From the NCBI GenBank assembly GCA_028700795.1, contig JAQVRY010000002.1:1-40787 (forward strand): a stretch of DNA of 40,787 nt. The letters are read 5' to 3'. This DNA is from Tissierellia bacterium (GTDB lineage: Bacteria; Bacillota; Clostridia; Tissierellales; Sedimentibacteraceae). A program made the position numbers and the translations under genes. The stretch's first letter is position 1; each line of letters begins with the position of its first letter. The notes below the pieces were generated by a model. It was given only the letters and a program-made list of their open reading frames with translations. It was not told the DNA's origin and made no database searches. Shown piece after piece: positions 333-16,274 of this stretch.

Positions 333-869
333 TTATTTAGATTCTTTTACTGTATTTTTAAAATATCCTCGTATTGCATAAATTAATGCAGGAATAAATA
401 CTAACTGTATAATGATTCCCGGTATGCCTGATATAATTGCACCTTTAACATACAACAATGGATTCATTTTAACTCCAAACAACTGTACTAAGACAGCTAC
501 TGTCAAACCTGCAGCAATTCTTCCGGCAATCATAGAAGTTATTAATGATGGGATTATGGACAAATTAAATTTCCGTGCTGATAGTGATGCTGTTAATCCG
601 TATGTTCCTAATTCAAATGCCATTATTACCGCCATAGGAAACATTACAGGCATTCCTGTCAGTAATCCGCTTATTAGGGGAGTAATAATGCCAAGTGCTA
701 ACGCTAATTGCGGTGATAATAAAAACCCTCCTATTAATACAGGTATATGCATTGGTAATGCAATTGGTCCTGTCATGCCAAACATGTGAAATATCATTGG
801 AATTATTATTCCACTTGCCAATAATAATCCGCCTAATACTAATTCTTTGGTTGCAAACTTTTTATTCAT
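333..869 (-). CDS. ECF transporter S component (substrate unknown)
   Basis: ~178 aa, very hydrophobic, with the PxxFH and LPMHIPVL motifs typical of this S-component group. Start moved to MNKKF (GGGAGG RBS). Confidence 0.8.
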   Translation of the reverse strand: MNKKFATKELVLGGLLLASGIIIPMIFHMFGMTGPIALPMHIPVLIGGFLLSPQLALALGIITPLISGLLTGMPVMFPMAVIMAFELGTYGLTASLSARKFNLSIIPSLITSMIAGRIAAGLTVAVLVQLFGVKMNPLLYVKGAIISGIPGIIIQLVFIPALIYAIRGYFKNTVKESK

Positions 870-923: not shown

Positions 924-1340
924 TTATTTTTCTCTTAATATTTTTTTCATTTTGATTTCAAGTTCATTAAATATTGTTTTAAACTGAAGACTTTCAAGTC
1001 CAATTATATCTATATTACATTTGCTTACTGGCAGCAGTAATTTTCTTGCCGGACTGCTTGCAATTGCTTCTGAAATTTTGGGACTTATTTCTCCCATCAT
1101 TGAATTTGATGCTACAATCGCTAATGGTCCTATTATTATATCAACTTTTTGGCACATCCATGAAATCGCATTTTCTCCGGTAGCTCCTTCGTGGGCACCG
1201 GCTCTTAACATATTGGAAGTTGCTTGGGAGTTCGTTCCCAATGCAATGATTTCTAAATCATTGCTATTCAAAGACTTCAGTATTTGTACTGCTTGGCTTC
1301 CAATTCCTCCGCCCATTCCATCAATAACAGCTATTTTCAT
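924..1340 (-). CDS. DUF3842 family protein
   Basis: MKIAVIDGMGGGIG...ALGTNSxATxxMLRAGA...ATGENAI signature. Start set at MKIAV. Confidence 0.85.
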   Translation of the reverse strand: MKIAVIDGMGGGIGSQAVQILKSLNSNDLEIIALGTNSQATSNMLRAGAHEGATGENAISWMCQKVDIIIGPLAIVASNSMMGEISPKISEAIASSPARKLLLPVSKCNIDIIGLESLQFKTIFNELEIKMKKILREK

Positions 1341-1488
1341 ATTTATTGACCTTTTATTTCTTTCTCTTGTGTCTTGCACCTTATGTATTCATTATATCTG
1401 GTGTAAAGCTGATTTTGCAGCTTGCAATATAGTGTAACATAATTTTATATAAAAGTAAATATTAAAAATTTTACATCGGTTAGGGTTG

Positions 1489-1512
1489 TGGGGACACGCC
1501 TCCGTGTCCCCA
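1489..1512. repeat. GC-rich palindrome (REP-like or terminator) downstream of aor
   Basis: Perfect 10-bp stem tggggacacg-cctc-cgtgtcccca. Confidence 0.65.
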
Positions 1513-1527
1513 ATTACCGGTTGTATT

Positions 1528-3396
1528 TTAAGCTAACTCTTCTGCTCCATATAAGTCTTCAACTACTTCTTCTAAATGACCTAATCTTTTTAATGTTTCT
1601 AAATTTGGTTTGCCTGTTTCATAGTCAATTCCGGCAGCTTCAAAGAAATTCTTGCCTAACAGCTCTTCATCTACGGTTACTCCACCTAAAGGTCCTTCGG
1701 TTAACGGTGGTTTTCCTACTGCTCTTCGTGCAATGTCAAAGTCGGATGGTTTTAACCCTTCTCTTACATTAAATGCATGACGCATCAAATATATGCGATG
1801 ACCGGTCTCAAATGCTTTTTCTGCACCAAATTCCATCCCTGTTATTGCACTTATAAATTCATTTTGTATTCCTGGAGGTGATACTAAAGCGTGGAAATAG
1901 CACAGACCGCTGCAGTTCATAACTTCAGTGCCGGCTGTCAACTGTAAATCAAACATACCGGTTCCGTTATAGTCATATTTATCTGTTAATTCATTTCCAC
2001 CCATTTGAATGGAACCTATACCGCCCTTAACGTGTCGTCCCGGTGTTGGGTCAAATTGATATGTTCTGGCTAACCCCGGTGCAAATCTTGGGTCATGCAT
2101 TGGTAATTCTATTCCTGATGCTGTTTGAAGATATTCTTCACCTTTACCCCAGTATTTTGCTGCATATTTAGAACCATTTGCCAAAATCTTACCGCAGCCT
2201 TCACCTTCACACATTTTCTTAAGAATTTCTACCATTGCTGCTCCATTGCCCCAGGTTAACTCAATTCCGTCTAATTCTTCTTTTAACACACCTTCTTCAT
2301 AGCATTCCATTGCCCACGCTATTGTCATGCCTGCAGATATTGTATCGAAACCATAAATGTTGCACATCTCATTGCACATAAGAAGGGCATCTTCTTCATA
2401 ACACAAACAAGTGGAGCCAAATGAAGCAGCCGTTTCATATTCAGGTCTTTCGGTTTGCTCTAAAGGCCATCTCCCATCCTCTACCTTATATTCTGCCCCA
2501 CATCCCAAGGGACAGTTCGCGCAGCTGTATTTTTTGGTTTTATATCTGTCTATAGCTATAGCTCCCACTTTTTGTGCTTTTTCATCTTCAAAATCGACAA
2601 CTCCAACACCTCCCCAGTTTTTCACAGGTGAATCACCGCTTAGTGCCGATGCTGGCGTTCCAACTCCTGTGCCCCATGTACCAAAAGCATATGCCGTCTG
2701 GCTTTCTTTCATGGCAGCACTAATTATTTTGTTTATTTCCGTTACCTTTTCGGAATCTTTTACAGGAATATCTCCTGTGCCTCTGACAGCAATTGCTTTT
2801 AAATTTTTGGAACCCATAATGGCTCCGCCGCCGCCTCTTCCCGGAGCACGATGTCCGTCATTTATTGGACATGATATATAGGACAGCCTTTCTCCGGGAG
2901 GTCCGATTGCTGATATTCGAAGTTTTGGCTCTTTTGTTTCCTCTTTTAATACTTCCCATACCTTTTTTGTATCCATTCCCCAAATATGTGAAGCATTTCT
3001 TATTTCAACTTTGCCATCATTGATATAAATGTAAACGGGTTTTTCTGAAATACCATTTACAAACAATGCATCATATCCTGCTTTTTTTAACTCGGGTCCG
3101 AAATAGCCGCCTGAATTTGCATCATTCCATCCGCCTGTAACGGGAGATTTATGAACCGTGGTGTATCTTCCTCCAAAAAATGCCCTTGTAGCAGTAGTAG
3201 GTCCTGTTATGAAACCCACTACATTTTCAGGTCCCAAAGGATCTGCTCCTGCAGGCATCATTTTATAAAGCACCTTAGCTCCAAATCCATAAGCACCAAT
3301 GAAATTCTCTGCTAATTCTTTTGTAAGTACTTCTTCTTTAATTTCGCCATTTGTTAAGTTTATAAACAGCATCTTTCCTGCATATCCGTATAACAT
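1528..3396 (-). CDS. aor: Aldehyde:ferredoxin oxidoreductase family (W/Mo bis-pterin, 4Fe-4S)
   Basis: 622 aa with YGYAGKML, KSPVTG, GRGGGGAIMGSKNLKAI, CANCPLGC, PEYET, DTISAG, HDPR and GLC motifs; AGGAGG RBS. Confidence 0.92.
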   Translation of the reverse strand: MLYGYAGKMLFINLTNGEIKEEVLTKELAENFIGAYGFGAKVLYKMMPAGADPLGPENVVGFITGPTTATRAFFGGRYTTVHKSPVTGGWNDANSGGYFGPELKKAGYDALFVNGISEKPVYIYINDGKVEIRNASHIWGMDTKKVWEVLKEETKEPKLRISAIGPPGERLSYISCPINDGHRAPGRGGGGAIMGSKNLKAIAVRGTGDIPVKDSEKVTEINKIISAAMKESQTAYAFGTWGTGVGTPASALSGDSPVKNWGGVGVVDFEDEKAQKVGAIAIDRYKTKKYSCANCPLGCGAEYKVEDGRWPLEQTERPEYETAASFGSTCLCYEEDALLMCNEMCNIYGFDTISAGMTIAWAMECYEEGVLKEELDGIELTWGNGAAMVEILKKMCEGEGCGKILANGSKYAAKYWGKGEEYLQTASGIELPMHDPRFAPGLARTYQFDPTPGRHVKGGIGSIQMGGNELTDKYDYNGTGMFDLQLTAGTEVMNCSGLCYFHALVSPPGIQNEFISAITGMEFGAEKAFETGHRIYLMRHAFNVREGLKPSDFDIARRAVGKPPLTEGPLGGVTVDEELLGKNFFEAAGIDYETGKPNLETLKRLGHLEEVVEDLYGAEELA

Positions 3397-3442
3397 AATA
3401 TCCTCCTTTTAATTTAATAACTTTTAATATTTAAAATATCTA

Positions 3443-3679
3443 TTACCCTCCACCTAATACAGTTAAAATCATTACCTCATCCTTGTCATTTAAGATGGTA
3501 GATGTTGTTGCTTTTGATTTATTGACTAAAATTGTTGCTTTATTTAACATTTCTTTATTGTTTGGATACTGTTTAATTAAATGATTAAGAAGAACTGTAA
3601 CATCAGAACCTTCCCGGAGTACAGCTTCAGAAATTAAATTATTTGCAATCAAACCAAAATATTTTATTTTTATCACCAT
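3443..3679 (-). CDS. MoaD/ThiS family sulfur carrier
   Basis: Small ubiquitin-like protein (IKIKYFG...ILVN...DEVMIL) ending in GG. GGGGAG RBS favours the 3679 start; 3697 is the alternative. Confidence 0.88.
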   Translation of the reverse strand: MVIKIKYFGLIANNLISEAVLREGSDVTVLLNHLIKQYPNNKEMLNKATILVNKSKATTSTILNDKDEVMILTVLGGG

Positions 3680-3699
3680 ATCCAGGTTTCTCCCCATTT

Positions 3700-4434
3700 T
3701 TATTCAATTATATAAGCTGCCATTACACCTTCATTTTCATAGTTTCTTTTACCTGCTCCATAGCCAACTTTTTTAATCTTATATTTTCCAGGTAAAGAAT
3801 TTTGGGTTTTGATTGCAGCTAGAATAGCTGCTCCGGTAGGCGTAACCATTTCTCCTTCAACGTTAGTTTTTTGTAAATTTATATTATATTTTTTTGCTAT
3901 ATTTACTACAGCGGGAACCGGTACAGGAAGTATTCCTTTTCTGCACTTAATAAAACCTTTACCGTCACAGATTTCTGTAACAATTACATCTTTAATATTT
4001 AAATAATCCAAACAAATTGCTGTGCCTACAATATCTACAATGGAATCAACAGCACCCGATTCATGAAAATACACTTCTTTTATGGTTACTTTATGTGCTT
4101 TTGATTCAGCTTCTGCAGCTATATAGAATATTTTTTTTGAAATAGTTTTTGCATTATCCGATATTAAAGAATTATCTATAATATAGTAAATATCATCAAT
4201 GTTTCTTTCAATAAATGTTTCTGATTTTTTGTTATCTATTACAACTTCAAAATCACATGCTTTAATGCCATTTTTTACTATATTGGAAATTACTATATTA
4301 TAGCCTTCCACATTTAAGCTTTTCAGCCCATTTAATAATAATTCTTTATCAGCACCTAAATCTATAAGTGCAGCAACCGTCATATCTCCGCTAATACCTG
4401 AGTTGCACTGAAAATACAATGTTTGTTCAGTCAT
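3700..4434 (-). CDS. larC: LarC family nickel-insertion protein, N-terminal domain only
   Basis: SGISGDM, FHExGAVDSIVDIVG, LPVPVPA, GEMVTPTGAAI and GYGAGKR motifs. Only 244 aa, no C-terminal domain. Confidence 0.85.
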   Translation of the reverse strand: MTEQTLYFQCNSGISGDMTVAALIDLGADKELLLNGLKSLNVEGYNIVISNIVKNGIKACDFEVVIDNKKSETFIERNIDDIYYIIDNSLISDNAKTISKKIFYIAAEAESKAHKVTIKEVYFHESGAVDSIVDIVGTAICLDYLNIKDVIVTEICDGKGFIKCRKGILPVPVPAVVNIAKKYNINLQKTNVEGEMVTPTGAAILAAIKTQNSLPGKYKIKKVGYGAGKRNYENEGVMAAYIIE

Positions 4435-4452
4435 TTTCCACCTTTTTAAGTT

Positions 4453-4490
4453 TATTAAGGGCTATTATAATATAATAATAGCTCTTAATA
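4453..4490. other. Intergenic stem-loop between the DUF362 gene and larC
   Basis: 16-bp arms tattaagggctattat/ataatagctcttaata with one mismatch; no U-tract on the minus strand. Confidence 0.55.
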
Positions 4491-4511
4491 TTCTTTAATA
4501 TAGTAATGAGT

Positions 4512-5909
4512 TTATGCTAATCCCGCCTCAGCTTTTTCTTCTTCAATAGAAATTTCTTCTATTTTCCCACTTGGTTTAATATTTAATTTTTCTTCTGATA
4601 CATTTGGAACTTCATAGAAAAAATCACCTATAGTATTATCAATTTTTTTGAATGTTTCTTTATGAACAACAGGGAAAGTTTTTTCCGGAGTGTATGGTGG
4701 GAACCAGAATTCCCCTTCAGGAGACGGTTCAGATTTAACCAATACATATTCCGTAGAGCCTATACCGTTATAAACACCTGCATTTAATTGCGCCCACTGG
4801 CTCTTTTTTGCTATACTTGAACAGTTGGTAAAACGTTCTGTGTTTGGCTCACTGAATCCAAATTGTTCAGCTTTCGAGCCCGGATTTGCTGCTACTTCTT
4901 CTGTTGCTTCAATAGATGCCATATCTACTGCAACAGGGTCTTTAGATGCAAACACCCCAATATTAGGTATTAATGCCCTATCATGGAATGCGCAACAATC
5001 ACACCATGGAGATATGTCGAAAGCATAATTAAGATAAATCATTTTATCTTTGCCAACTGCGTTTATATAGCCTGCAGCTGCATCAACAATTGCCGGTGCC
5101 CAGGAAGTGATTAAATCAGGGTGAAGATTAAATAAACCGGTTAACATAAATGCCATACAGTGACCGCACAGCTTGCATTTTTCAGGCATAAATTTGAATG
5201 TATCATCTTTCCACTCAAATGCATCTTGAGGACATGAAGCAATCATATTATCAATTAAATTAGGATGGGGAGCATTAGCAGCTTGTTTTGCAGCATCCTG
5301 ATTAATTGTCCATGCTTTCAATCCTAAAGTTGGATGTAATAAAAAGTGTGTTGCAAGCTTACCTTTCGGGGAGCCCATTCCAATTCCTACGTTTTTTAAA
5401 GAACCTCCAAATACCCCCATTGGGTGACCTTTGAAATGTGTTATAACTACTACCGCATCAAATTCAAGAATTTGTTTTCCCATATAAGTATTCTTTAGAT
5501 ATACACCATGTGGAACTTCTACTTCTACTTCATCTTCACCATATTCACCATCGCAAATCCAAACAGGACACCCCATTGTTTCTTCCGTAAATCCATGTAC
5601 TGCTGCAGTTCTTAAATGGTCTGACTTTATAGTTCGAGAAGCATTAAACCCAAGTGGAGCTGTATTACAGTCAAATACTACAGGATCTCCTCCAAGCCTT
5701 TTTACTTCTTCAACAATAGCACTTACCCAATGCGGTCGTAAGTTAAGTGAATTTCCGAATTCACCGAAATGCACCTTAATTCCAACCTTATCCCCTTTTT
5801 TAAAAACTGTTTCCAAACCTGCATCCCTAAGGACTTTAACTGCCTTAAACGGCGTACTTTCACTTGAGCTTTCTGCATGGTCGTTCATGAAATAAACTTT
5901 TGATGACAT
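4512..5909 (-). CDS. DUF362 domain Fe-S protein
   Basis: MSSKVYF, GIKVHFGE, THFKGHxxxxFGGSLKN, CxxCxxC, SPxCDC and ASKDPVAVD motifs; AAGGAG RBS. Confidence 0.85.
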   Translation of the reverse strand: MSSKVYFMNDHAESSSESTPFKAVKVLRDAGLETVFKKGDKVGIKVHFGEFGNSLNLRPHWVSAIVEEVKRLGGDPVVFDCNTAPLGFNASRTIKSDHLRTAAVHGFTEETMGCPVWICDGEYGEDEVEVEVPHGVYLKNTYMGKQILEFDAVVVITHFKGHPMGVFGGSLKNVGIGMGSPKGKLATHFLLHPTLGLKAWTINQDAAKQAANAPHPNLIDNMIASCPQDAFEWKDDTFKFMPEKCKLCGHCMAFMLTGLFNLHPDLITSWAPAIVDAAAGYINAVGKDKMIYLNYAFDISPWCDCCAFHDRALIPNIGVFASKDPVAVDMASIEATEEVAANPGSKAEQFGFSEPNTERFTNCSSIAKKSQWAQLNAGVYNGIGSTEYVLVKSEPSPEGEFWFPPYTPEKTFPVVHKETFKKIDNTIGDFFYEVPNVSEEKLNIKPSGKIEEISIEEEKAEAGLA

Positions 5910-6006
5910 TTTACTTTTCTCCTTTCAAATTATTATAAAATAGCTCTTTAAGAGTTTTTAATGTAATTTATTAGGTCAAGTAAATTATCTATCCCCCTTT
6001 CAATTT

Positions 6007-6951
6007 TTAACAGCATGAACTAAAAGATTTTTGAATCATTGCAGAATCTATTTCGTCTTCAGCTATCAACACAACTACACTTTTTCTTTCTTCACTGTCT
6101 TCCCATTTTTTATCTGCTTTAGAATGATATGTTTTTCTTACTGCTTGAAACTCATATCTGTAATCATCATTTTTAAAATAGAAAAAACCCTTGCTTCGCA
6201 ACAATTTATTACCATAGGCAGTAAACAAATCTTGTATCCAATCATTGACCTTCTTCTTGTCCATAGGACGATTTTCTGATAACACTACAGTCTTTATGTT
6301 GTCCACACTATTTTTTTCCTCCTTGCAAATATTTGATAAATCTTTTAATTGCTTGTACAAGTCAATATTCATAATATTATCTAATTTTACTCTGCCGTAT
6401 TGTGTACGATAAATTTTAGCCATAGAATTTATATTATGTATACGTTTTTCTAAAACATCTATTTCTTCATCATTAACTAAGTCGACTTTATTTAATAATA
6501 TTACGTCAGCAAATGCTACTTGATGTTTAGCTACCTTGTATTCATCTAAATTTAATTGTCCGTACTCTGCATCAACGATGACAATGTAGCTGCCTAATTT
6601 GTATAAATGTTGCATATGACCTAAAAAGAATAAATGAATTAATCCTTCCGGCGTATCAAGACCGCTGGCTTCCATCAACAGATGGTCAAATGGATTTTCA
6701 ATTGTTTTATCATGAAGCTTTTGAAAATAATGGTACAGCAGAATTTGAGGGTCTTCATGAATATGCAAATTTGTAAATACATGTATGTTTTCCTTTTTTA
6801 GATTAATCAGCATATCATCTATTGACACTGCTCCATATTCACGTACTAAAACATCAACTTTCTTATCAATCATGTGTGATAAAATATAATTGACTAATGT
6901 AGTCTTTCCTGACCCTAAAAATCCTCCGATTATATTTACGGTTTTCTTCAT
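6007..6951 (-). CDS. CobW/COG0523 family G3E GTPase metallochaperone (atypical)
   Basis: GFLGSGKTT Walker A, EASG, QVAFAD, NKVD and LLRSKG (CobW_C). The CxCC motif is absent. Confidence 0.88.
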   Translation of the reverse strand: MKKTVNIIGGFLGSGKTTLVNYILSHMIDKKVDVLVREYGAVSIDDMLINLKKENIHVFTNLHIHEDPQILLYHYFQKLHDKTIENPFDHLLMEASGLDTPEGLIHLFFLGHMQHLYKLGSYIVIVDAEYGQLNLDEYKVAKHQVAFADVILLNKVDLVNDEEIDVLEKRIHNINSMAKIYRTQYGRVKLDNIMNIDLYKQLKDLSNICKEEKNSVDNIKTVVLSENRPMDKKKVNDWIQDLFTAYGNKLLRSKGFFYFKNDDYRYEFQAVRKTYHSKADKKWEDSEERKSVVVLIAEDEIDSAMIQKSFSSCC

Positions 6952-6965
6952 TGCTGCCTCCTTTA

Positions 6966-8207
6966 TTAATCTTCGCTTAAGACCAATGACGAATTATTGA
7001 TAAGCTCAGATGATTTTTTAATGGTTTTCATTGTAATTACATATGTAATTGTCCCAAGCACTGCAAATACAATTAATACAAGATCATAGCTGCCGGTAAA
7101 GTCATATGAAAGACTCATAGCAGGTGTACCTGCTGCAGCTCCTGCAGACATTAACGATACTGAAATACCGATTAAATTGCTGAAATATTCTTCTCCTGAA
7201 ACTGCAAGAACAAACAGAGGTATTAATACAGAAAGTGTGGCTAATGCAAATCCATAGCTTATGGCATACAGCCATGCAATTAATTTATTTGTCATAAAGA
7301 ACAATAGTATTGAGCTTATAATAAATGTTATTAATCCAATACTCATGGACACTTTAATATTGAACCTGTCATTCACAACACCTAAAAAAACTTTTGCAAA
7401 AGCTAATATTAGCATTATTACTCCCGATACTTCAGATGCAAATATGTAGTCAAAATTTCTGTCCGTCATATGAGCAGGTGTAATGTGAAGAAAAGGTGCT
7501 ATTAAAAATCCAAACATAAACAAACAAAATAATGCTGCTATAATACATGGTTCTTTTAATAATTCACCGGTTGTTTTTTTTGTAGTTAAAATATTATCAC
7601 TTTTGCTTATTTCCATATCCGTAATTGGTACAGTAGGCTCTTTAACCATTAATGTTACGGGTATTGAAAGTATTAGAAAAATAATTGAGCCGATTAAATA
7701 TGAGCGATTATAACCGTAATTGGTTATAATCTTAGCTACAACAGGGCTGAAAACAGCACCTCCCAATCCGCTTCCTGCAAAGATTAAACCAAGTATTAAG
7801 CCTTTATTTTCGGTAAACCAACTATTAATCAACATGGAAAATGTTAATGTTGATGTATATACCAAGCCAATTCCTAAAAAAGATGCTCCTAAATAAAATG
7901 CGGGTAGACTTGAAGCTTTATAATATATGAAATATCCGGCAGCAAATAGTAATGTTCCTGAGCCAACCATAAATCTGATTCCCATACTCTTATAAATCTT
8001 GTCATATGAAAGATTTGCTACAATTCCTACTATAGCTATAATACTGAATATAAAAGAATATTCAGACCTGGCAAATCCAAAATACTCTGTAACAGGAACA
8101 ACATAAAGGTTTTGAGTAATATTTCCTAAACCTAAATAAATAAATGACATAATAAAACATGAAAATACTATTATATATCCATAATTGAACTTTTTACCCA
8201 ATTGCAT
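6966..8207 (-). CDS. MFS transporter (OFA/monocarboxylate-like)
   Basis: 413 aa, about 12 hydrophobic segments, WFxxxKGLxLG motif and GVVNDRF motif-A-like loop. Confidence 0.85.
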   Translation of the reverse strand: MQLGKKFNYGYIIVFSCFIMSFIYLGLGNITQNLYVVPVTEYFGFARSEYSFIFSIIAIVGIVANLSYDKIYKSMGIRFMVGSGTLLFAAGYFIYYKASSLPAFYLGASFLGIGLVYTSTLTFSMLINSWFTENKGLILGLIFAGSGLGGAVFSPVVAKIITNYGYNRSYLIGSIIFLILSIPVTLMVKEPTVPITDMEISKSDNILTTKKTTGELLKEPCIIAALFCLFMFGFLIAPFLHITPAHMTDRNFDYIFASEVSGVIMLILAFAKVFLGVVNDRFNIKVSMSIGLITFIISSILLFFMTNKLIAWLYAISYGFALATLSVLIPLFVLAVSGEEYFSNLIGISVSLMSAGAAAGTPAMSLSYDFTGSYDLVLIVFAVLGTITYVITMKTIKKSSELINNSSLVLSED

Positions 8208-8236
8208 GCTCCATTTCGTTATCTTAACTTAATTGT

Positions 8237-8252
8237 AGCAATTCTTGTACCA
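8237..8252 (-). promoter_or_regulatory. sigma54 (-24/-12) promoter of the MFS-to-aor operon
   Basis: Minus strand TGGTACAAGAATTGCT has exact GG-N10-GC spacing, lies 30 bp upstream of the MFS start and is adjacent to a sigma54 activator gene. Confidence 0.85.
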
Positions 8253-8384
8253 ATATACGGATTAATGTATATTGATTAGAAGAATGTCCTCAATTCTTCA
8301 AGATTCCTCAGGCTGCTGCGCTTTCAGAACGGCCAAATGAAATACATAAAAAAAAACAGAAAAATACTACAAGTATCTTTCTGT

Positions 8385-8503
8385 TGTAAAATAATATTAC
8401 AATGATTGTTAATTAATTAATATTTATTAAATTCGTTACAATCTCTTATTTAAATTGCTGTAAAAAAATGTTACGATACTTCTTGTTGTAACATTTTTTT
8501 ACG
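8385..8503. promoter_or_regulatory. Three candidate enhancer (UAS) sites, TGTAA-N7-TTAC(A/G)
   Basis: Sites at 8385-8401, 8459-8475 and 8487-8503; TGT-N11-ACA-type palindromes typical of Fis-HTH activators. Confidence 0.65.
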
Positions 8504-10459
8504 CTTGCTTAGTTTGGGTGACCCGTCTATTTTTCTGTATAAAGTTGGGCGGCTTATACCTAAACGTTTAGCAGTATTTGTTAAATTCCAATTTTCTTGA
8601 TTTAATACATATTCTATAATTATTTCTTCGCCTGTTTTCAATAAATCTTTATTTTGTTTTGTTTCAACAACATGTGCAGATATTTTATTTTTAAGACTTT
8701 TATATTTATATGCACTTAATACTTCACGAGGAAGGCTGTCAATTGAAAGGGTTTCTTTTTCATTCAACAATACTGCTTTTTCTATTGCATTTCTTAATTC
8801 ACGGACATTCCCTCTCCAGTAATAATATTTCAAAGCTTCATAAAACTCAGGGTCTACCTTCACTTCCGGAGTGCTTGAATGTTTTACATTATAATCTATA
8901 AAACTTTTTGCAAGCAAAGGGATATCATCTTTTCTGTCTCTTAGCGGAGGTATGGATAAACTGATTATATTAATACGGAAATATAAATCTTCTCTAAATT
9001 GACCGAGCTCAATTTCCTGCAATAAATCTTTTTTTGTTGCAGCGATTATCTTGATATTTATAGGGATTTCTTTTATTCCTCCGATTCGAGTAATTCTATT
9101 GGATGACAGTGCTCTTAACAGCTTTATTTGAACGTTTAAAGGCATACTGTCTATTTCATCAAAAAAGAATGTACCACCGGATGCAATTTCTAATTTGCCG
9201 AATTTTATGCTGTTTAAGGCTCCTGTAAATGACCCCGGCTCGTAACCGAATAATTCGCTTTCAATTAATTCTGAAGGGATAGCACCGCAGTTAATTGCCA
9301 CAAAAGGTTTGTTTTTTCTAAAGCTTTCGTTATGTATTGATTGAGCAAACAATTCTTTGCCTGTACCGCTTTCACCACATATTAAAATTGCTGAAGAAGT
9401 TCGAGCGGCTTTTTTTGCTAATTCCTTTACTCGTACTATATTTTTGCAATTCCCTATTATATCATCGAAAGTATATATAGCACTGTTTTTAATATTAAAT
9501 TGCAAGTACTTGTTTGTACTATCAAATTTAAAAAGGCGGCATACTTCCTTATTTTCATTGATGATAAATTGTTTAACGGATACTAAAAATGATTTTTTTT
9601 CATTATTTATTTTTAAAATTAATTCAGTATTTTCCATTTCATCGCCCTGAATGTGTTTTTCAACCTGTCTTAATGCCATTCTAATGCATTTATCCACATT
9701 CTCATTATCTTTAGAGCTTATTTCGAACATATTGAGAAGTGATTTATTATAGCTGATAATTTTATTACTGACTAAATAAATAATTCCCGAGCTGTCATAT
9801 TCAATAATATTTTTTAAAGTATTATTTGATACGGTCAGCTGTGTTAACATATTGTCGATTTGAATTTTATCTTCAATTATTTTTGCTATTGATTGAGCAA
9901 GGCCTAACGTTCCTATAGTATGCTTATGGTCAATAATGCCGCCTATATTAATAGCACCTACTATTTTTTTATTAAATCCATGTATGGGTGCTGCCGAGCA
10001 ATTGTATTGATGTAACAATTTATTATAGTGCTCTTTACCAAATACTTGAATAGGTATATCGTATTGTAATGCTAAACAAATAGAGTTTGTACCAATACTT
10101 TCTTCCGAGCAGTTTGTAGTTATTAAATCAATTTTTTCCGAAACTGCCAATACTGATACTAAATTACACTTATTATCAAAAAGAATAAAAGATAAGTTGA
10201 ATTCATCCGCAATTTTTTGCAGAATAGCTCTAAATTCTTCATCAACAAACTTATTACATACTGAGTAAGAATCTAAATCCTTTTTTTTAAGATAATATTT
10301 TTCATCTAGTGCATAAGGATTAACATTTGCTAAAGCACTACGGTGCCAAGATTTAGAAACCACAGGGGAGACAACGTTTTCATCAACAGCTAAACTGTTT
10401 GTCATTTTTCTCCACTCCAAGCCTACAGCTTCCATATCTGTTTCTTTTGATTTATCCAT
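8471..10459 (-). CDS. sigma54-dependent transcriptional activator (AcoR-like: GAF, PAS-like, AAA+, Fis HTH)
   Basis: SWxRS, IGTN, SAAPI (GAF), GESGTGKE, ESELFG, GSFTGA, FREDLYFR, GNVREL and LGISRPTLYRK. Start moved to ATG 10459 because the annotated TTG is part of the GGAGG RBS. Confidence 0.93.
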   Translation of the reverse strand: MDKSKETDMEAVGLEWRKMTNSLAVDENVVSPVVSKSWHRSALANVNPYALDEKYYLKKKDLDSYSVCNKFVDEEFRAILQKIADEFNLSFILFDNKCNLVSVLAVSEKIDLITTNCSEESIGTNSICLALQYDIPIQVFGKEHYNKLLHQYNCSAAPIHGFNKKIVGAINIGGIIDHKHTIGTLGLAQSIAKIIEDKIQIDNMLTQLTVSNNTLKNIIEYDSSGIIYLVSNKIISYNKSLLNMFEISSKDNENVDKCIRMALRQVEKHIQGDEMENTELILKINNEKKSFLVSVKQFIINENKEVCRLFKFDSTNKYLQFNIKNSAIYTFDDIIGNCKNIVRVKELAKKAARTSSAILICGESGTGKELFAQSIHNESFRKNKPFVAINCGAIPSELIESELFGYEPGSFTGALNSIKFGKLEIASGGTFFFDEIDSMPLNVQIKLLRALSSNRITRIGGIKEIPINIKIIAATKKDLLQEIELGQFREDLYFRINIISLSIPPLRDRKDDIPLLAKSFIDYNVKHSSTPEVKVDPEFYEALKYYYWRGNVRELRNAIEKAVLLNEKETLSIDSLPREVLSAYKYKSLKNKISAHVVETKQNKDLLKTGEEIIIEYVLNQENWNLTNTAKRLGISRPTLYRKIDGSPKLSKRKKMLQQEVS

Positions 10460-10641: not shown

Positions 10642-11622
10642 TTATTTGGAGACTGCAATTACTAATTTTATGCATTCTTCCACATCGGATTTGTTAAATA
10701 TTTCACCTGATGTATGAAGGTTTCTTGTAGGTATGGATATTACTCCGCTCGGTACTCCTTCTCTTGAAGTATGTATAGGTCCTGCATCCGTTCCGCCGAA
10801 TTCCAAAATTTCATATTGATATTTAATGTTGTTTTTTTCTGCAGTATTTGTTAATAACTCTTTTACATCTGTATGTGTAATAATGGATTTGTCCATTAGT
10901 TTAATTGCTGCTCCACCGCCTAATTTGACATCCATTTTAATTCCGTCAGGTGTGTCGCCCGTTGCAGTTACGTCAACGGCGATTGCTAAATCCGGCTCAA
11001 TTGTGTACCCGGCTGTTTTAGCACCTCTACATCCCACTTCTTCTTGTACTGAAAACACATAGTATATATCATTATCAGTTTTAGGATGATTTTTAAGCGC
11101 TTCAATTAAGATATAGCAGCCAATCCTGTCATCTGCAGCTTTGCATATTACACAGTCCTCTGTTTCGTAATATTCAGTTTTAAATACACACATATCGCCT
11201 ATATGGAAATTATTTCTAATGAATTCTTCATCAGTGGAAGCAACATCCAAAAATAATTTACTTGTTAATAGCGTTTCCTTATCTTTTAATTCCTCTTGGC
11301 AAATTACTCCTTCTAATCCATTTAAAAATACCATTCGGAGTCCCAACAATTCCTTGGCATTTAATCCTCCTACATTAGCAAAGCGTAAAAAACCTTTCTT
11401 ATCAACATGGGTTATAATTAAGCCAATTTGGTCCATGTGAGCAGAAAATAATATTTTTTTGCCTGCTCCTTTTTTTCTTGCTATAAGATTACCAAGAGGG
11501 TCTATTGTTATTTCATCTGCAAAATCTTTTATTTCATCCATAATCATTTCACAAATCTTTTTTTCTCTTCCTGAAGGACTGAAACAATCGGATAATTTTT
11601 TCATTAATTCACTGTTAAACAT
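10642..11622 (-). CDS. M42 family metallo-aminopeptidase
   Basis: AHMD, DDR, QEEVG, VD and terminal H metal ligands. Confidence 0.9.
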   Translation of the reverse strand: MFNSELMKKLSDCFSPSGREKKICEMIMDEIKDFADEITIDPLGNLIARKKGAGKKILFSAHMDQIGLIITHVDKKGFLRFANVGGLNAKELLGLRMVFLNGLEGVICQEELKDKETLLTSKLFLDVASTDEEFIRNNFHIGDMCVFKTEYYETEDCVICKAADDRIGCYILIEALKNHPKTDNDIYYVFSVQEEVGCRGAKTAGYTIEPDLAIAVDVTATGDTPDGIKMDVKLGGGAAIKLMDKSIITHTDVKELLTNTAEKNNIKYQYEILEFGGTDAGPIHTSREGVPSGVISIPTRNLHTSGEIFNKSDVEECIKLVIAVSK

Positions 11623-11624
11623 TG

Positions 11625-12638
11625 CTACTCCCCTTTCTGATTTTCAATAATCACTTGTTTTGTAAGTTTTAAAGCACTATCTATGTCATTTTTGCTTGCC
11701 ACGCTTATTGATGAATGTATATATCTGCAAGGTACTGAAATCGCCACTACCTTGGCGCCTCTTTTCGTTTTATGGATAACACCGGCATCATTTCCTCCTG
11801 ATGTTGAGCGTCTGTATTGATAAGTAATATTATTGTCTTCAGCAATTTTTGCAGCACTTCTTACTGTTTCAATATCGTATATCGTTGCATTGTCCATCAA
11901 TGACAGTACTGCTCCCTTCCCGATAAAGGTGGAGCTTTCATGTTCATCTACTTCAGGCATATCTGCACATACGGTTCCTTCCAATACTATGCCTAGGTCC
12001 GGCTCTAATTGATATGCTGCTGTTTCTGCTCCTCTTAAGCCGACTTCCTCCATAACAGTAAACACACCGTAAAAATCTGCATCCAAATTTTGGCTTAGAA
12101 GCTCTAATATAATGCTGCAGCCTGCTCTGTTGTCCAAAGCTTTTGCTTTAATCATATTGTTGCCGAATTCAACATAGTCACTTTTAAAAGCTGCATAGTC
12201 CCCTATATTTACTACTTTTTCTGTTTCTTCTTTTGTACTTGTACCAATATCAATATATAATTTATCAATGGGAAGTGAGCTTCCTCTTTCTTCTTCACTC
12301 ATTAAATGCACTGCTTTAGAGCCGATAACGCCAGGAATTTTATTTTCTCCTATTACTACAACCTTTGAATTCAAAACTCTCTGGTCAATTCCTCCAACTG
12401 CTTTAAATTTAATAAAACCGTCAGAATCAATATTAGAAACTATCAATCCTACTTCATCCATGTGAGCAGAAAGCATTATGTTTTTATTTTTTTTGCCTTT
12501 ATTGTGAGCTATAATGTTTCCAAGTTTATCAACATAGAATTCGCAGCCCATTTCTGATAGTTTGCCCTTTATATAATTTCTTACTTCATATTCACAACCT
12601 GATACGCCGGAAAGTTCAGTTAATTCATTTAAAAACAT
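11625..12638 (-). CDS. M42 family metallo-aminopeptidase
   Basis: AHMDEVG, KALDNRAG, MEEVG, LEGT and RYIHS. Confidence 0.9.
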   Translation of the reverse strand: MFLNELTELSGVSGCEYEVRNYIKGKLSEMGCEFYVDKLGNIIAHNKGKKNKNIMLSAHMDEVGLIVSNIDSDGFIKFKAVGGIDQRVLNSKVVVIGENKIPGVIGSKAVHLMSEEERGSSLPIDKLYIDIGTSTKEETEKVVNIGDYAAFKSDYVEFGNNMIKAKALDNRAGCSIILELLSQNLDADFYGVFTVMEEVGLRGAETAAYQLEPDLGIVLEGTVCADMPEVDEHESSTFIGKGAVLSLMDNATIYDIETVRSAAKIAEDNNITYQYRRSTSGGNDAGVIHKTKRGAKVVAISVPCRYIHSSISVASKNDIDSALKLTKQVIIENQKGE

Positions 12639-13669
12639 AATATTTCCTCCAAATCAGAATTATCCAATTCATTTATAAACCTTGCTAATGCTTTTCCTGC
12701 AATTTCTAAATCATTTATATCTATGGTTTCCACTGATGTATGCATGTATCTAAGCGGTATCGACAATAGTATGCAGGGAATTCCGTCTCTTGATACTTGC
12801 ACTGCATCTGTGTCTGTGCCGGTTCTTGCAGGCACTGCTTCATGCTGCATTGGATAATTGTATTTTTTGCAGATTTCAACAAATTTCTTTGTAAGTTTTG
12901 TATTTAGTCTTCCTCCGTATGCAACGATGGGACCTTTGCCTAATTGAGGTGAATCAGCAGGCATATCAGGAGTTTTGCCAAATCCAACATCTAAAACTAT
13001 TCCGATATCCGGAGCAATTTTATAACTGCTTGTTTTGGCACCCCTTAAACCTGTTTCTTCCTGAGCTGTCGCAGTAAAATACACATTGCTTTTATGTGAT
13101 ATTTTCTTTAATTCTTTTGCTGCTTCAAGCATAACTGCAATACATGCTCTGTCGTCAAATGCTTTTGCACTTATAATGCTTCCCTGCAATGATAAAGGCT
13201 TTCTATTTACAGTGGCAATATCTCCGATTTTTACTAGTTTTTCAAGTTCTTCTTTTGTATATCCTGTATCTATATATAGCTCCTTTATTTTAAGAGGTTT
13301 TTTTCTTTCTTCTTCACTTGTTAAATGAGGCGGTTTAATTCCTATAACTCCAAATATATTTTCTTTTCCATATACTGTTACATCCTGAGCAACCAAGGAT
13401 GAAGAATTAAATCCACCAACTGTAGAGAAGCTTAAAAAGCCTCCCTCCAATATACTTGTAACCATAAGCCCTATTTCATCAATGTGTGCTGCAAGCATTA
13501 TTTTAGTATCATTGCTGCCGGCTCTTTTAAAGATATAACTTCCAAGCCTGTCCATTTCAAATGAATCTGTGTATGGCTTAAAATATTTTTTCAAAATATC
13601 ACCGTTAATATGCTCGAAACCTGAAACAAAATGGTTGGAGCATATATCAAACAAAAATTCTTTAAGCAT
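12629..13669 (-). CDS. M42 family metallo-aminopeptidase
   Basis: AHIDEIG, KAFDDRA, QEETG, LDV and RYMHT. Confidence 0.9.
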   Translation of the reverse strand: MLKEFLFDICSNHFVSGFEHINGDILKKYFKPYTDSFEMDRLGSYIFKRAGSNDTKIMLAAHIDEIGLMVTSILEGGFLSFSTVGGFNSSSLVAQDVTVYGKENIFGVIGIKPPHLTSEEERKKPLKIKELYIDTGYTKEELEKLVKIGDIATVNRKPLSLQGSIISAKAFDDRACIAVMLEAAKELKKISHKSNVYFTATAQEETGLRGAKTSSYKIAPDIGIVLDVGFGKTPDMPADSPQLGKGPIVAYGGRLNTKLTKKFVEICKKYNYPMQHEAVPARTGTDTDAVQVSRDGIPCILLSIPLRYMHTSVETIDINDLEIAGKALARFINELDNSDLEEILCF

Positions 13670-13724: not shown

Positions 13725-16274
13725 TTACTTTAATAAATCATCCAGTGCATCTCCTATAGATTCTCCTATAGTAAAGTTTGTATCTTCCTGTTGATAAGAT
13801 GTACTATCCGTAGTTTCTTCACCTTTGTCATCTAATATTAATGTCAGGTTAAGGTTTTTACCTTTCATATCTATGTTTTGAACTTTAGCTTCTTTTATTT
13901 CTCCAACCTTAACAACTTGTGCCGGCGTTCTTAATTTTTCTGTTGACACCTTTGCAATTGGGATGAAGCAGTCAATGTTTCCATTAGCGTCTACATGTAT
14001 GCCATCAAGCAGTATACGTGTTACTTCAACCTGTATTATATCGTCCTTATTGAGTGTTTTAGCATAAACATCAAATGGATGATCAGTCAATTGCTTTAAT
14101 CCAAGGCCTACCTTTCTGTCTTTTCTTGTAATGCTCAATATTTTTGCCGTTACTTCCTGACCTTCTTGAAGAACATCGGTAACTTTTTCTGTTCTTGCCC
14201 AGTCTAAATCTTTAATGTGTAAAAGACATTCAATCTCATCTACTTTAACGAAGGCTCCAAAGTCAACAATCCTTGTTACCAGACCTGTTACTGTATCGCC
14301 CTTTTGATATTTATCCAGGAATTTTGCCCAAGGGCTTTTTACAGTTGCTTTATAGCTTAAGGAAAGTCTTCTATTTTCCTTGTCTACATTTTTAACCTTT
14401 ACATTTATTTTGTCGCCCGGTTTTAATACTTCTGACGGGTGTTTAATCCTGGTCCATGCAATTTCATTGATATGAAGAAGTCCGTCTATGCCGTTGATTT
14501 CTACAAATGCACCGTAATCCTGAAGATTTTTTACAGTACCTTCGTAAATTTCACCTACTTGTATTTCTTCCCATACTTCCTTGTCTCTTACTTCCTTTTC
14601 CAGTTTTTCAACAGCTCTCGAAGTTAAAACCAACTGTCTTCTTCCTTTTTTGTTCTTTGTTTCTAATATTTTAACCTTCAGGTTTTTGCCTACATATTCT
14701 GAAGGGTCAACATCTCTTTTAATTGATATTTGATTTCTTGGAATGAAACCTTTAATGCCTTTTAGTTTTCCGTAAATTCCATATTGTGATGCTTCAATTA
14801 TAGGAATTTCCAGAATTTCTCCTTGAACTCTGAGGTGTTCCAGCTCATCCCAGATTTTCTGTTCTTCCAATGGTTTTCTTGTAAGAACAACATTTCCGTC
14901 TTGGTCAGAAATTCTTACTACAATTGCTTCAATTTCGTCTCCTTCTTTTACTATTTCAGTTAAATCGGAAACTTCTGTCAAGGAAAATTCGTCTCTTGTT
15001 ATAATGCCGTCAGATTTATAATTAATGTTAACAGAAACGGCATCAGGGCTTACATATATTATTTTTCCTTTAACCTTTTCACCGATTCTGATATAAACTA
15101 CTCCGCCATAATTTTCAAGCAATTCATGCATAGTGTTTACTTTTTCTGCTTGTTCAGTCTGTTCAACTTGTTCAGTCTGTTCAACTTGTTCAGTCTGTTC
15201 TGCAGGTTCTGTTTGCTCTGCAGGTTCAGGCTGCTCTGCAGGTTCTGTTTGCTCTGCAGGTTCTGACTGCTCTGCAAGTTCAGTCTGCTCTACGGGTTCT
15301 GACTGCTCTGCTTGTTCTGCTTGTTCTGTTTGTTCTGTTTGCTCAGTCAGTTCTGCTTGTTCAGACTGTTCAGTTTGCTCAGACTGTTCAACTAATTCTA
15401 CATGTTCTGCCTGTTCGTTCTTTTCATTCATGTTGTTATTTAAATTTTCCAACATATTAATAACCTCCTCAATTATCCAGTCAGGAGCTGAAGCACCTGC
15501 GGATACTCCCACAATAGTATTTTTATCAATATAGTTATAAGGTATTTCCTTATAATTTTGTATTAAGAATGTGTTTTTACACAATTCCTTGCTCAGTTCA
15601 TATAACTTTTTGGTATTTGAACTATTTTTCCCACCTACAATAAGCATTACTGTACATTTTGAAGCAAGTTCTACACAAGCCTCTTGTCTTTTCCTTGTTG
15701 CTTCACATATTGTATTATGTACAATTATATTAGAATAATTGTTTATTTCAATAGTTTTTAAAATTTCTTTAAAAATATTCAAATTAAAAGTTGTCTGGCA
15801 GACTAAGCAGTAATTCTTTGACGGCTCAATTATATTTATTAGTTCTTCAGGACTTTTAATTATGTCCGCTTCGTTGTTGCACCAGCCTGCTATTCCCTGT
15901 ACCTCAGGATGATTCTCATCACCAACAATGATTATATTGTAACCCTTATTTTTGAATTCTTCAACTATTTTATGTATTTTTTTTACTTTTACACAAGTTG
16001 CATCAATAACTTTGATGTTTTTTTCTTCCAATATGTCATATATATGTTTTCCAACACCATGACTCCTGATAAGAAGCTTTGCATCGTTGTCCTCAGGCAG
16101 GTTTTCAACTATTACCATACCTTTATCTTTTAATTTTTCAACAACATCTTTGTTATGAATTATTTCTCCATAGCTGTAGAGTTTTTTTTCGGCAGTTAAA
16201 ATCTTATCTGCTTTTAGAACGGCAGCCTTGACACCTCCACAAAAACCGTTATACTCTGAAACAATTATTTTCAT
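13725..16274 (-). CDS. ispH: Bifunctional 4-hydroxy-3-methylbut-2-enyl diphosphate reductase / ribosomal protein S1
   Basis: IspH cluster cysteines GFCGGV, DATC, TICEAT plus SSNT and AGASAP; C-terminal S1 repeats (YGAFVEI, FGAFVKV). Confidence 0.93.
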   Translation of the reverse strand: MKIIVSEYNGFCGGVKAAVLKADKILTAEKKLYSYGEIIHNKDVVEKLKDKGMVIVENLPEDNDAKLLIRSHGVGKHIYDILEEKNIKVIDATCVKVKKIHKIVEEFKNKGYNIIIVGDENHPEVQGIAGWCNNEADIIKSPEELINIIEPSKNYCLVCQTTFNLNIFKEILKTIEINNYSNIIVHNTICEATRKRQEACVELASKCTVMLIVGGKNSSNTKKLYELSKELCKNTFLIQNYKEIPYNYIDKNTIVGVSAGASAPDWIIEEVINMLENLNNNMNEKNEQAEHVELVEQSEQTEQSEQAELTEQTEQTEQAEQAEQSEPVEQTELAEQSEPAEQTEPAEQPEPAEQTEPAEQTEQVEQTEQVEQTEQAEKVNTMHELLENYGGVVYIRIGEKVKGKIIYVSPDAVSVNINYKSDGIITRDEFSLTEVSDLTEIVKEGDEIEAIVVRISDQDGNVVLTRKPLEEQKIWDELEHLRVQGEILEIPIIEASQYGIYGKLKGIKGFIPRNQISIKRDVDPSEYVGKNLKVKILETKNKKGRRQLVLTSRAVEKLEKEVRDKEVWEEIQVGEIYEGTVKNLQDYGAFVEINGIDGLLHINEIAWTRIKHPSEVLKPGDKINVKVKNVDKENRRLSLSYKATVKSPWAKFLDKYQKGDTVTGLVTRIVDFGAFVKVDEIECLLHIKDLDWARTEKVTDVLQEGQEVTAKILSITRKDRKVGLGLKQLTDHPFDVYAKTLNKDDIIQVEVTRILLDGIHVDANGNIDCFIPIAKVSTEKLRTPAQVVKVGEIKEAKVQNIDMKGKNLNLTLILDDKGEETTDSTSYQQEDTNFTIGESIGDALDDLLK
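15138..15416 (-). repeat. In-frame tandem repeat of 31 x 9 bp encoding (E-Q/P/L-x)n
   Basis: EQAEHVELVEQSEQT...EQVEQTEQAEKV with Glu at every third residue; 18-bp higher-order units are visible. Confidence 0.95.

What the first reader, a model, noticed from the sequence alone, without database searches (positions are those of the whole stretch)
1528..10459. Candidate new sigma54-controlled metallo-cofactor system: MFS, atypical COG0523, DUF362, half-LarC, MoaD, AOR
Seen: six co-directional genes with gaps under 100 bp follow a perfect sigma54 promoter and their own AcoR-like activator. Known: AOR plus MoaD is a common W/Mo-pterin pairing; LarC inserts Ni into the nickel-pincer nucleotide (NPN) cofactor and normally occurs with larA/B/E; COG0523 proteins are metal chaperones. 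No larA, larB or larE is in this window, and all three metal-related accessory proteins deviate from their family norms. Inference: the operon imports a small organic acid or aldehyde, transforms it with a DUF362 enzyme carrying an NPN-like or novel metal cofactor (matured by the GTPase, LarC-N and possibly MoaD as sulfur donor), and couples this to AOR redox chemistry. I do not know a described pathway with this composition.
Basis: partly seen in the sequence, partly recalled or inferred. Interest (0 to 1): 0.85.

Follow-up and report, generated by a model that had tools for sequence, protein, structure and literature searches.

The report
Tungsten oxidoreductase paired with lactate-racemase-fold enzyme
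An operon in an anaerobic digester and landfill bacterium pairs a predicted tungsten aldehyde oxidoreductase with an uncharacterised iron-sulfur protein shaped like nickel-dependent lactate racemase, a pairing kept in distant bacteria, and it likely scavenges that protein's rare nickel cofactor instead of making it.

Summary
The operon is real: six tightly packed genes, a sigma54 site and activator conserved in four relatives, and RNA-library contigs bridging most gene junctions. The six genes are not one fixed unit. The conserved core is COG0523-DUF362-AOR-MoaD (10 other Tissierellia-order genomes), usually with an NAD-dependent SDR and a small helical protein that this genome lacks; DUF362-AOR-SDR recurs in distant metagenome contigs. 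The DUF362 model has the LarA cofactor-binding fold, keeps the His174/Lys184/His200 equivalents, lacks His108 and carries a ferredoxin insert, which fits a one-way dehydrogenase. The half-LarC is present in only 2 of 11 genomes with the core. It belongs to a distinct His-poor LarC1 clade that keeps the acidic pocket, travels with an ECF S-component and DUF3842 (both just downstream here), and mostly occurs in genomes without larB/larE, some of which still encode LarA. Best reading (0.4): a DUF362/AOR redox pair using a salvaged nickel-pincer cofactor. MoaD most likely serves the tungsten pterin, not DUF362. Main doubt: the triad is shared by all DUF362 proteins examined, and near-complete genomes carry the core with no lar gene.

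The parts
8471..10459 (-). sigma54 enhancer-binding protein (AAA+ with GSFTGA variant, Fis HTH); likely activator of the operon
   Evidence: Pfam PF00158, PF02954; all NCBIfam hits below cut-off; motif; orthologues 53-75% identical beside the operon in G573, G023, G010, and a more distant EBP in G519
8385..8401 (-). candidate upstream activator sequence TGT-N11-ACA
   Evidence: near-identical in L024; motif type listed for AorR in PMC6615313 (passages)
8237..8252 (-). sigma54 -24/-12 promoter element TGGTAC-N5-TTGCT
6966..8207 (-). MFS transporter, nearest to bile-salt, lactate and oxalate/formate families (all below cut-off); accessory
   Evidence: in the locus in G000, G010, G573 only
6007..6951 (-). 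COG0523 GTPase without CxCC; relatives carry an N-terminal His-rich tail that is lost here; core gene in Tissierellia-order loci
4512..5909 (-). DUF362 protein (465 aa): LarA N-domain fold with H162/K172/H188, inserted ferredoxin-like domain (C226, C245, C248, C251), C303-D-C305 motif, C-terminal extension
3700..4434 (-). His-poor stand-alone LarC1 (244 aa): acidic pocket kept, His patch reduced, no LarC2
3443..3697 (-). MoaD/ThiS-like sulfur carrier (WorX), C-terminal GG; true start may be a few codons downstream
1528..3396 (-). AOR/WOR-family oxidoreductase, single large subunit
924..1340 (-). DUF3842, a lar-linked small protein; start at 1340 inferred from homologues (ORF finder gives 1379)
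   Evidence: inside larE-larB-larC operons in L148, L169, L170 and fused to LarC1 in L146; an RNA-library contig bridges AOR and DUF3842
333..869 (-). ECF transporter S-component (PF12822), candidate importer of a cofactor or precursor; start inferred from RBS
   Evidence: beside His-poor LarC1 in L143, L145, L146, L147, L149 and beside this operon in G010 and G573

Best explanation
This sigma54-type operon encodes a conserved pair of a predicted tungsten aldehyde:ferredoxin oxidoreductase and a LarA-fold iron-sulfur DUF362 protein, which likely works as a one-way nickel-pincer dehydrogenase whose cofactor would be salvaged from outside rather than built. Shown: gene content, conserved DUF362-AOR adjacency, the predicted fold and residue pattern, the His-poor LarC1 clade and its neighbours, and missing larB/larE in several near-complete genomes. 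Inferred steps: (1) the EBP senses a small alcohol, aldehyde or acid and switches the operon on; (2) the MFS moves an organic acid; (3) DUF362 holds a pincer cofactor on K172 with H188 on nickel, and its single base H162 lets it take a hydride from a carbinol carbon (a hydroxy acid or alcohol); lacking the second His it cannot return the hydride as a racemase does, so electrons leave through its [4Fe-4S] insert to ferredoxin; (4) AOR oxidises the resulting aldehyde, or the route runs in reverse, with the SDR of relatives doing an NAD-linked step; (5) MoaD matures the AOR pterin; (6) the ECF S-component imports a ready-made pincer scaffold, and LarC1, DUF3842 and the COG0523 GTPase reload nickel or install the cofactor. 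The substrate is not identified.
For: Fold: AlphaFold model pLDDT 92.8. All 11 Foldseek hits at E<=1e-3 are LarA-family; VIA Z 14.5-17.5, rmsd 3.0-3.8, 214-231 aligned, next unrelated Z 6.6. Residues: hhalign to 4 LarA homologues puts H162/K172/H188 on the EPH His, GGRK Lys and NH His, and Ser91 on the His108 position (E 0.0016, probability only 16%). K172 aligns with K197 of PDB 9q3j, named as the cofactor-linking lysine in bioRxiv 2025.08.19.671153. Coupling: AOR directly follows DUF362 in 10 of 10 testable order genomes and in 4 metagenome loci at about 37% AOR identity. Pincer link: larE is adjacent to this DUF362 subfamily in L039, L042, L044 and L047 in two arrangements; DUF3842 is a lar-operon gene. 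Salvage: His-poor LarC1 forms one clade (29 of 30 rows, SH-aLRT 99, quick tree). larE is in 1 of 9 genomes with it, against 4 of 4 searched with canonical LarC1. G010 (99%), G001 (97%) and G461 (98%) encode LarA homologues but no larB/larE. The ECF gene is in 35 of 44 larE-negative and 7 of 15 larE-positive family genomes (p 0.02, kin not independent). LarC1 is the proposed nickel-insertion half and accepts a dinucleotide intermediate (PMC13510736).
Against: H162/K172/H188 and CDC are invariant in all DUF362 rows that span these sites, including generic ones from genomes without larE, so the triad is not diagnostic. G519 (96%) has the core with no larA, larB, larC or larE; G461 lacks larC. LarC1 is missing from the G573 locus and genome. 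The window's LarC1 has Lys at the H160 position, where Ala nearly abolished activity in M. thermoacetica LarC, and has no LarC2 or linker, which that paper found necessary. larE absence in His-poor-LarC1 genomes (8 of 9) does not differ from the family background (44 of 59 lack it, p 0.67). The ECF gene is common (42 of 59), so its presence alone says little. Only 3 of 79 generic DUF362 loci had larE nearby (34 of the 79 were 8 kb or longer). No paper found describes pincer uptake.
Confidence: 0.4

Rival explanations
1. DUF362 is a pincer-independent Fe-S oxidoreductase or electron-transfer partner of AOR. The conserved His/Lys/His and CDC residues hold another metal centre or an ordinary pyridine nucleotide. 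COG0523 metallates it, and LarC1, DUF3842 and ECF are passengers from a separate module.
For: Triad universal in DUF362; core present in G519 and G461 without larC; generic DUF362 in 28 of 59 family genomes against larE in 15 of 59; LarC1 only in 2 of 11 loci.
Against: larE adjacent in four loci of the same DUF362 branch; three lar-linked genes (LarC1, DUF3842, ECF) gather at this operon in G000, and two each in G010 and G573; LarA itself occurs without larBE.
Confidence: 0.3
2. Ordinary NPN biosynthesis: larB, larE and larC2 lie in the unassembled part of this genome, and the split larC1 completes a standard pathway.
For: The assembly is 88.5% complete and also misses moeA; split larC1/larC2 is common; G023, G025 and G497 have lar genes elsewhere.
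Against: G010 (99%) has the same operon with only the His-poor LarC1 and no larB, larE or second larC; G001, G551, G524, G520 and G613 (94-99%) also lack larB/larE.
Confidence: 0.12
3. One reading: the operon builds a novel cofactor locally, with MoaD as sulfur donor and LarC1 plus COG0523 as maturases of DUF362 or of the AOR pterin (LarC1 acting like the MoeA/Cnx1 insertase on an adenylylated precursor).
For: LarC1, MoaD and AOR are contiguous here (gaps 2 and 46 bp). PMC13510736 itself likens the LarC intermediate to the Cnx1 one.
Against: No ThiF/MoeB or LarE-type activator in any operon examined; MoaD absent where AOR is absent; LarC1 of this clade sits beside LarA homologues and other genes without any AOR; G010, G461 and G025 have their own moeA pair.
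Confidence: 0.1
4. A patchwork: a known AorR-type aor-moaD unit that collected unrelated genes, with no functional link between DUF362 and AOR.
For: Gene order is shuffled between relatives; SDR, small protein, MFS and LarC1 come and go; DUF362-SDR loci exist without AOR.
Against: DUF362-AOR adjacency survives in every testable order genome and in loci at 37% identity.
Confidence: 0.08

Closest known systems
LarA superfamily of NPN-dependent 2-hydroxyacid racemases/epimerases (PF09861; PDB 5huq, 6d6z, 9q3j/9q3k); DUF362 is in the same Pfam clan CL0471 (PMC11770544)
   Same: N-terminal cofactor-binding fold; His174, Lys184 and His200 equivalents; Arg-Pro at the phosphate site
   Different: His108 position is Ser; no LarA C-terminal domain; ferredoxin insert and CDC motif; linked to AOR and an SDR; known single-His LarAHs lose His174, not His108
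LarC cyclometallase (Moorella thermoacetica, PDB 12bi; PMC13510736)
   Same: LarC1 domain with D15, R71, E104, E119, D124, D128, E187, H108 and H118 equivalents
   Different: H160 to Lys, H116 to Tyr, H53/H70/H72 lost, only 2 His; no LarC2 or linker; not beside larB/larE
Class I WOR with WorX (PMC13328260) and the AorR-controlled aor-moaD unit of Clostridium (PMC6615313)
   Same: single large AFOR_N+AFOR_C subunit, adjacent ThiS-like gene, sigma54 site and TGT-N11-ACA element
   Different: preceded by DUF362 and COG0523; best solved relative Pyrococcus AOR 1aor (E 4e-106); clade not assigned here
COG0523/G3E metallochaperones (CobW, YjiA, ZigA; PMC2770081)
   Same: Walker A, NKxD, CobW_C domain
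   Different: CxCC replaced by a His/Asp-containing segment in all 10 aligned members; N-terminal His tail in most relatives
Non-LarA pincer enzymes: NphT (AKR fold, PMC13524815) and NPAD ornithine cyclodeaminase (seen only as a citation)
   Same: precedent for pincer-based intermolecular hydride transfer
   Different: different folds; found beside larBCE; no Fe-S wire

Membership tests
LarA superfamily | Lar_N cofactor-binding fold | tested here: met
   (predicted model); no PF09861 hit by sequence
LarA superfamily | cofactor Lys (K184) and nickel His (H200), catalytic His174 | tested here: met
   K172, H188, H162; LarA numbering from papers read and from recalled motifs
LarA superfamily | catalytic His108 | tested here: not met
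   aligns to Ser91; no His among the four commonest residues of that column in 54 rows; low-confidence part of the alignment
LarA superfamily | C-terminal substrate-binding domain | tested here: not met
   no LarA_C Pfam hit; most structural alignments end near chain residue 270
LarA superfamily | binds NPN and transfers hydride | not testable with these tools
   needs purified protein
LarC | LarC1 acidic pocket plus H108, H118 | tested here: met
LarC | H160 and His-rich nickel patch | tested here: not met
   K166, Y122; 2 His in the domain
LarC | LarC2 CTP-binding domain, fused or adjacent | tested here: not met
   MoaD starts 2 bp after the stop; no LarC2 hit in the assembly, which is incomplete
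NPN biosynthesis pathway (larB, larE, larC) | larB and larE in the genome | tested here: inconclusive
   not found in G000, 88.5% complete; not found in G010, 99%
COG0523 | G3E GTPase domain plus CobW_C | tested here: met
   PF02492, PF07683
COG0523 | CxCC metal motif | tested here: not met
   motif defined in PMC2770081
WOR/AOR, Class I | AFOR_N and AFOR_C, four cluster cysteines, Glu/His at the active site | tested here: met
   C292, C295, C299, C499, E319, E321, H455 invariant in 11 rows; residue roles recalled
WOR/AOR, Class I | no adjacent WorS subunit; WorX nearby | tested here: met
   definition in PMC13328260
WOR/AOR, Class I | tungsten content and aldehyde oxidation | not testable with these tools
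   the PF12849 hit in the assembly reads as a phosphate-binding protein; moeA not found
AorR regulon | orthology of the EBP to Clostridium AorR | not tested
   only promoter and UAS pattern compared

The most novel reading that the evidence does not exclude
Nickel-pincer cofactor is traded between anaerobes like a vitamin. Non-producers import the scaffold through an ECF transporter and re-metallate it with a dedicated stand-alone His-poor LarC1. Here that supplies a new enzyme class: a DUF362 pincer dehydrogenase wired by its own Fe-S cluster into a tungsten oxidoreductase pathway.
Probability: 0.22. Interest if true: 0.88.

Novelty: new variant of a known kind. Interest (0 to 1): 0.63.

Why it matters
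No DUF362 function turned up in the library searches made here, and the 2026 WOR classification says only 5 of 92 clades have a defined role. This operon gives both an assay context: a partner oxidoreductase, a regulator for an inducer screen, and cultured carriers of the same DUF362 subfamily (Youngiibacter fragilis, Y. multivorans, Clostridium sp. KNHs216). A pincer cofactor re-oxidised through an Fe-S cluster would extend pincer chemistry from isomerisation and disproportionation to net ferredoxin-linked redox. Salvage would explain why near-complete genomes keep LarA without larB/larE, and would show that screens anchored on larBCE neighbourhoods miss a class of users.

Tried and rejected
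Complex prediction of AOR (3-607) with DUF362 (2-396) gave no answer (score 0.00); this is no evidence either way, and the DUF362 C-terminal extension was left out. RNA-library contigs end at 8197 and 8202, just inside the predicted start near 8226, while DNA contigs run through; both RNA runs are one sample, so this is not counted as a mapped start. The metagenome scan covered 5 of 64 parts and returned no member of the close subfamily, only 35-42% relatives and generic DUF362. The class-wide draw found the subfamily in 0 of 400 genomes and the His-poor LarC1 in 0 of 398 scored. The in-frame TAG flagged in G025 and G039 is the normal gene end. ESM Atlas gave no family for the 112-aa partner protein. 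The SDR has no close solved relative, and the representative search gave no names. The 595-aa neighbour of LarC1 elsewhere showed a weak MCR-alpha feature hit (0.78) that the fold searches did not support (best Z 5.8). Matching longest-contig lengths (P0004/P0125, P0151/P0246) could not be confirmed as shared contigs and are not counted. The sigma70 scan was at chance level (47 against 52). The NPAD paper (PMID 40976284) is not held. The WOR gene-neighbourhood table of PMC13328260 was too large to read and may list this operon. Earlier-finding searches by sequence, place and two word sets were empty.


Full report
Observation. Gaps inside the operon are 14, 97, 77, 2 and 46 bp. One sigma54-type site lies at 8237-8252; by itself it is near chance (22 of 100 shuffles). 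The same kind of site precedes the first gene in the four relatives with an adjacent EBP (L024, L027, L029, L111) and in none of four without (L026, L112, L115, L116). A TGT-N11-ACA element at 8385-8401 recurs in L024; PMC6615313 (passages) lists this motif type for AorR, which controls aor-moaD in Clostridium, and accepts the GSFTGA variant found in this EBP. The host is probably a Sedimentibacter, inferred from source names on close homologues. Runs holding the stretch are landfill, sludge and digester metagenomes. Contigs from digester RNA libraries bridge MFS/COG0523, COG0523/DUF362, DUF362/larC1, larC1/moaD, moaD/aor (a related strain) and aor/DUF3842. A contig across two genes does not prove one transcript, and the two best runs are one sample.

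Conservation. The DUF362 protein belongs to a distinct subfamily of about 460 aa (about 95 near-full-length proteins at 47% identity or more among the 120 listed). It was found in 10 of 300 genomes of the order and 0 of 400 of the class draw. Across these 10 and the window's genome: AOR follows DUF362 in 10 of 10 testable, COG0523 lies upstream in 10 of 10, and MoaD is in 9 of 9. An NAD-dependent SDR is in 7 and a 112-aa helical protein in 7; both are missing here. An adjacent EBP is in 5, MFS in 3 (G000, G010, G573), ECF S-component in 3, DUF3842 in 2, LarC1 in 2 (G000, G010). Several loci are split across contigs (G010, G023, G573) and were read as continuous. More distant members (35-42% identity) fall on the same branch (26 rows, SH-aLRT 85, quick tree). 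Four contigs show DUF362-AOR-SDR with AOR at about 37% identity (L031-L034; a ThiS gene was confirmed in L033). Six show DUF362, a small protein and the SDR with no AOR (L038, L039, L041, L042, L044, L046), and larE is adjacent in L039, L042, L044 and L047. So the oldest unit is DUF362 with SDR, AOR and MoaD join it in some lineages, and LarC1 and MFS are add-ons.

DUF362. The model (pLDDT 92.8) matches only LarA-family structures strongly, over the N-terminal cofactor-binding domain, with a ferredoxin-like insert at about 195-262 carrying four invariant cysteines. Profile alignment to four LarA homologues places H162, K172 and H188 on the His174, Lys184 and His200 positions and Ser91 on His108 (weak overall score). 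The lysine assignment agrees with PDB 9q3j (bioRxiv 2025.08.19.671153, parts 1-2 of 4). With one base and an Fe-S exit, a one-way dehydrogenase is the simplest reading (inference); PMC7583248 (passages) also expects other chemistry when one His is lost. Against a specific pincer claim, the triad and CDC are invariant in every DUF362 row examined that spans them, including generic ones in larE-negative genomes. Earlier notes of this scan made the LarA-fold point many times (89 findings), so that part is not special to this locus.

Half-LarC. PMC13510736 (parts 1-4 of 6) assigns nickel insertion to LarC1 and CMPylation to LarC2. Mapped on PDB 12bi, the window protein keeps all seven pocket residues plus H108 and H118, but has Lys for H160 and Tyr for H116. 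Of the 120 listed homologues, 44 lack both H70 and H160. Of these, 42 are 270 aa or shorter; all 44 keep D15, R71, H108, H118, E119, D124, D128 and E187, while E104 is changed in 13. On a tree of 82 rows (every second listed protein plus genome loci) 29 of 30 such rows form one clade. It is therefore a maintained subfamily, not a broken gene. Its nine genome contexts: this operon (2); a LarA homologue with an SDR (2); a LarC2-like gene, DUF1893 and an unknown 595-aa protein (3); a DUF3842 fusion (1); a CoA-transferase (1). The ECF S-component is within a few genes in 5 of the 7 non-operon loci. larE is in 1 of these 9 genomes; no true larB was found in the 7 searched. The four canonical-LarC1 genomes searched all have larE. 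The family background is also mostly larE-negative (15 of 59 positive), so the informative contrast is with canonical LarC, not with the background. G010, G001 and G461 hold LarA homologues with no larB/larE, which means either relic genes or an outside cofactor source. The ECF gene is more frequent where larE is missing (35 of 44 against 7 of 15; kin not independent). DUF3842, just downstream here, sits inside larE-larB-larC operons in three genomes.

Other parts. COG0523 lacks CxCC in all 10 aligned members and most carry an N-terminal His tail; PMC2770081 (passages) treats CxCC as defining and His stretches as chaperone marks. It is the accessory gene most tightly tied to the core, so it is the best maturase candidate (inference). 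AOR keeps cluster cysteines and active-site Glu/His and fits Class I with WorX (PMC13328260, abstract and passages), where the ThiS-like gene is assigned to pterin synthesis. The assembly shows no moeA and no clear tupA, which shows how incomplete it is.

Mechanism and rivals. I put 0.40 on a pincer-dependent DUF362 dehydrogenase coupled to AOR with a salvaged cofactor, 0.30 on a pincer-free Fe-S enzyme with lar-like passengers, 0.12 on unassembled larB/larE, 0.10 on a locally built novel cofactor with MoaD sulfur, and 0.08 on patchwork. The strongest results against the best reading are G519 (96% complete, core present, no lar gene), the universal triad, and the loss of H160 and LarC2. The substrate is unknown; MFS hits to lactate, oxalate/formate and bile-salt families are all below cut-off.

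Novelty. Ten paper searches found no functional study of DUF362 or COG2768, no AOR-DUF362 operon and no report of pincer uptake. DUF362 appears only as an outgroup in PMC11770544 (passages). The library lacks most subscription papers, including the NPAD paper cited in PMC13524815 (abstract, part 1 of 10 and passages), which could describe truncated LarC forms. The WOR neighbourhood supplement could not be read. All parts belong to known families, three fail a defining feature, and the combination looks undescribed: a new variant of a known kind, interest 0.63, with cofactor salvage as the bolder possibility.

Noticed in passing
L147:5664-7451, L145:10519-12384, L149:6478-7836: A conserved unannotated protein of about 595 aa (637 homologues at E<=1e-10, top 120 at 57% identity or more, several phyla). 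In 3 of 300 order genomes, each time directly before a LarC2-like gene, His-poor LarC1, DUF1893 and ECF. Confident model (pLDDT 93) with no fold match. Candidate new pincer or nickel enzyme.
   Followed up: partly
G010:C9:23866-24444, G461:C64 and C19, G001:C177 and C34: LarA homologues in 97-99% complete genomes with no larB/larE found.
   Followed up: partly
L169:9327-12599, L170:7591-10886: Complete larE-DUF3842-larB-larC operons in G037 and G460, which have no PF09861 LarA: unknown pincer user; beside FmdE and a peptide/nickel-type ABC transporter.
   Followed up: partly
L027:762-1100, L039:5342-5626, L038:5657-6019, L033:5877-6242: Small helical proteins (83-121 aa) beside DUF362 or the SDR, several ending in V/I-x-T; no family found. 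Possible small subunit.
   Followed up: partly
L172:1324-1671 (G573): A stand-alone CobW_C domain after moaD, in the genome that lacks LarC1.
   Followed up: no
window 1488-1507: GC-rich hairpin after the AOR stop without a T-run; an RNA-library contig crosses it.
   Followed up: partly
window 4453-4490: 16-pair AT-rich inverted repeat between DUF362 and larC1; could stabilise or process the transcript.
   Followed up: no
window 13725-16274: IspH-RpsA fusion (LytB plus S1 domains) with a long Glu/Gln-rich repetitive linker.
   Followed up: no
window 10642-13669: Three tandem M42 aminopeptidase genes upstream of the activator.
   Followed up: no
G000 C120, C30, C148: Three further AOR-family genes; the C120 copy is flanked by a small Fe-S gene and NADH-dehydrogenase-like genes, resembling a bifurcating WOR (read from N-terminal sequence only).
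   Followed up: no
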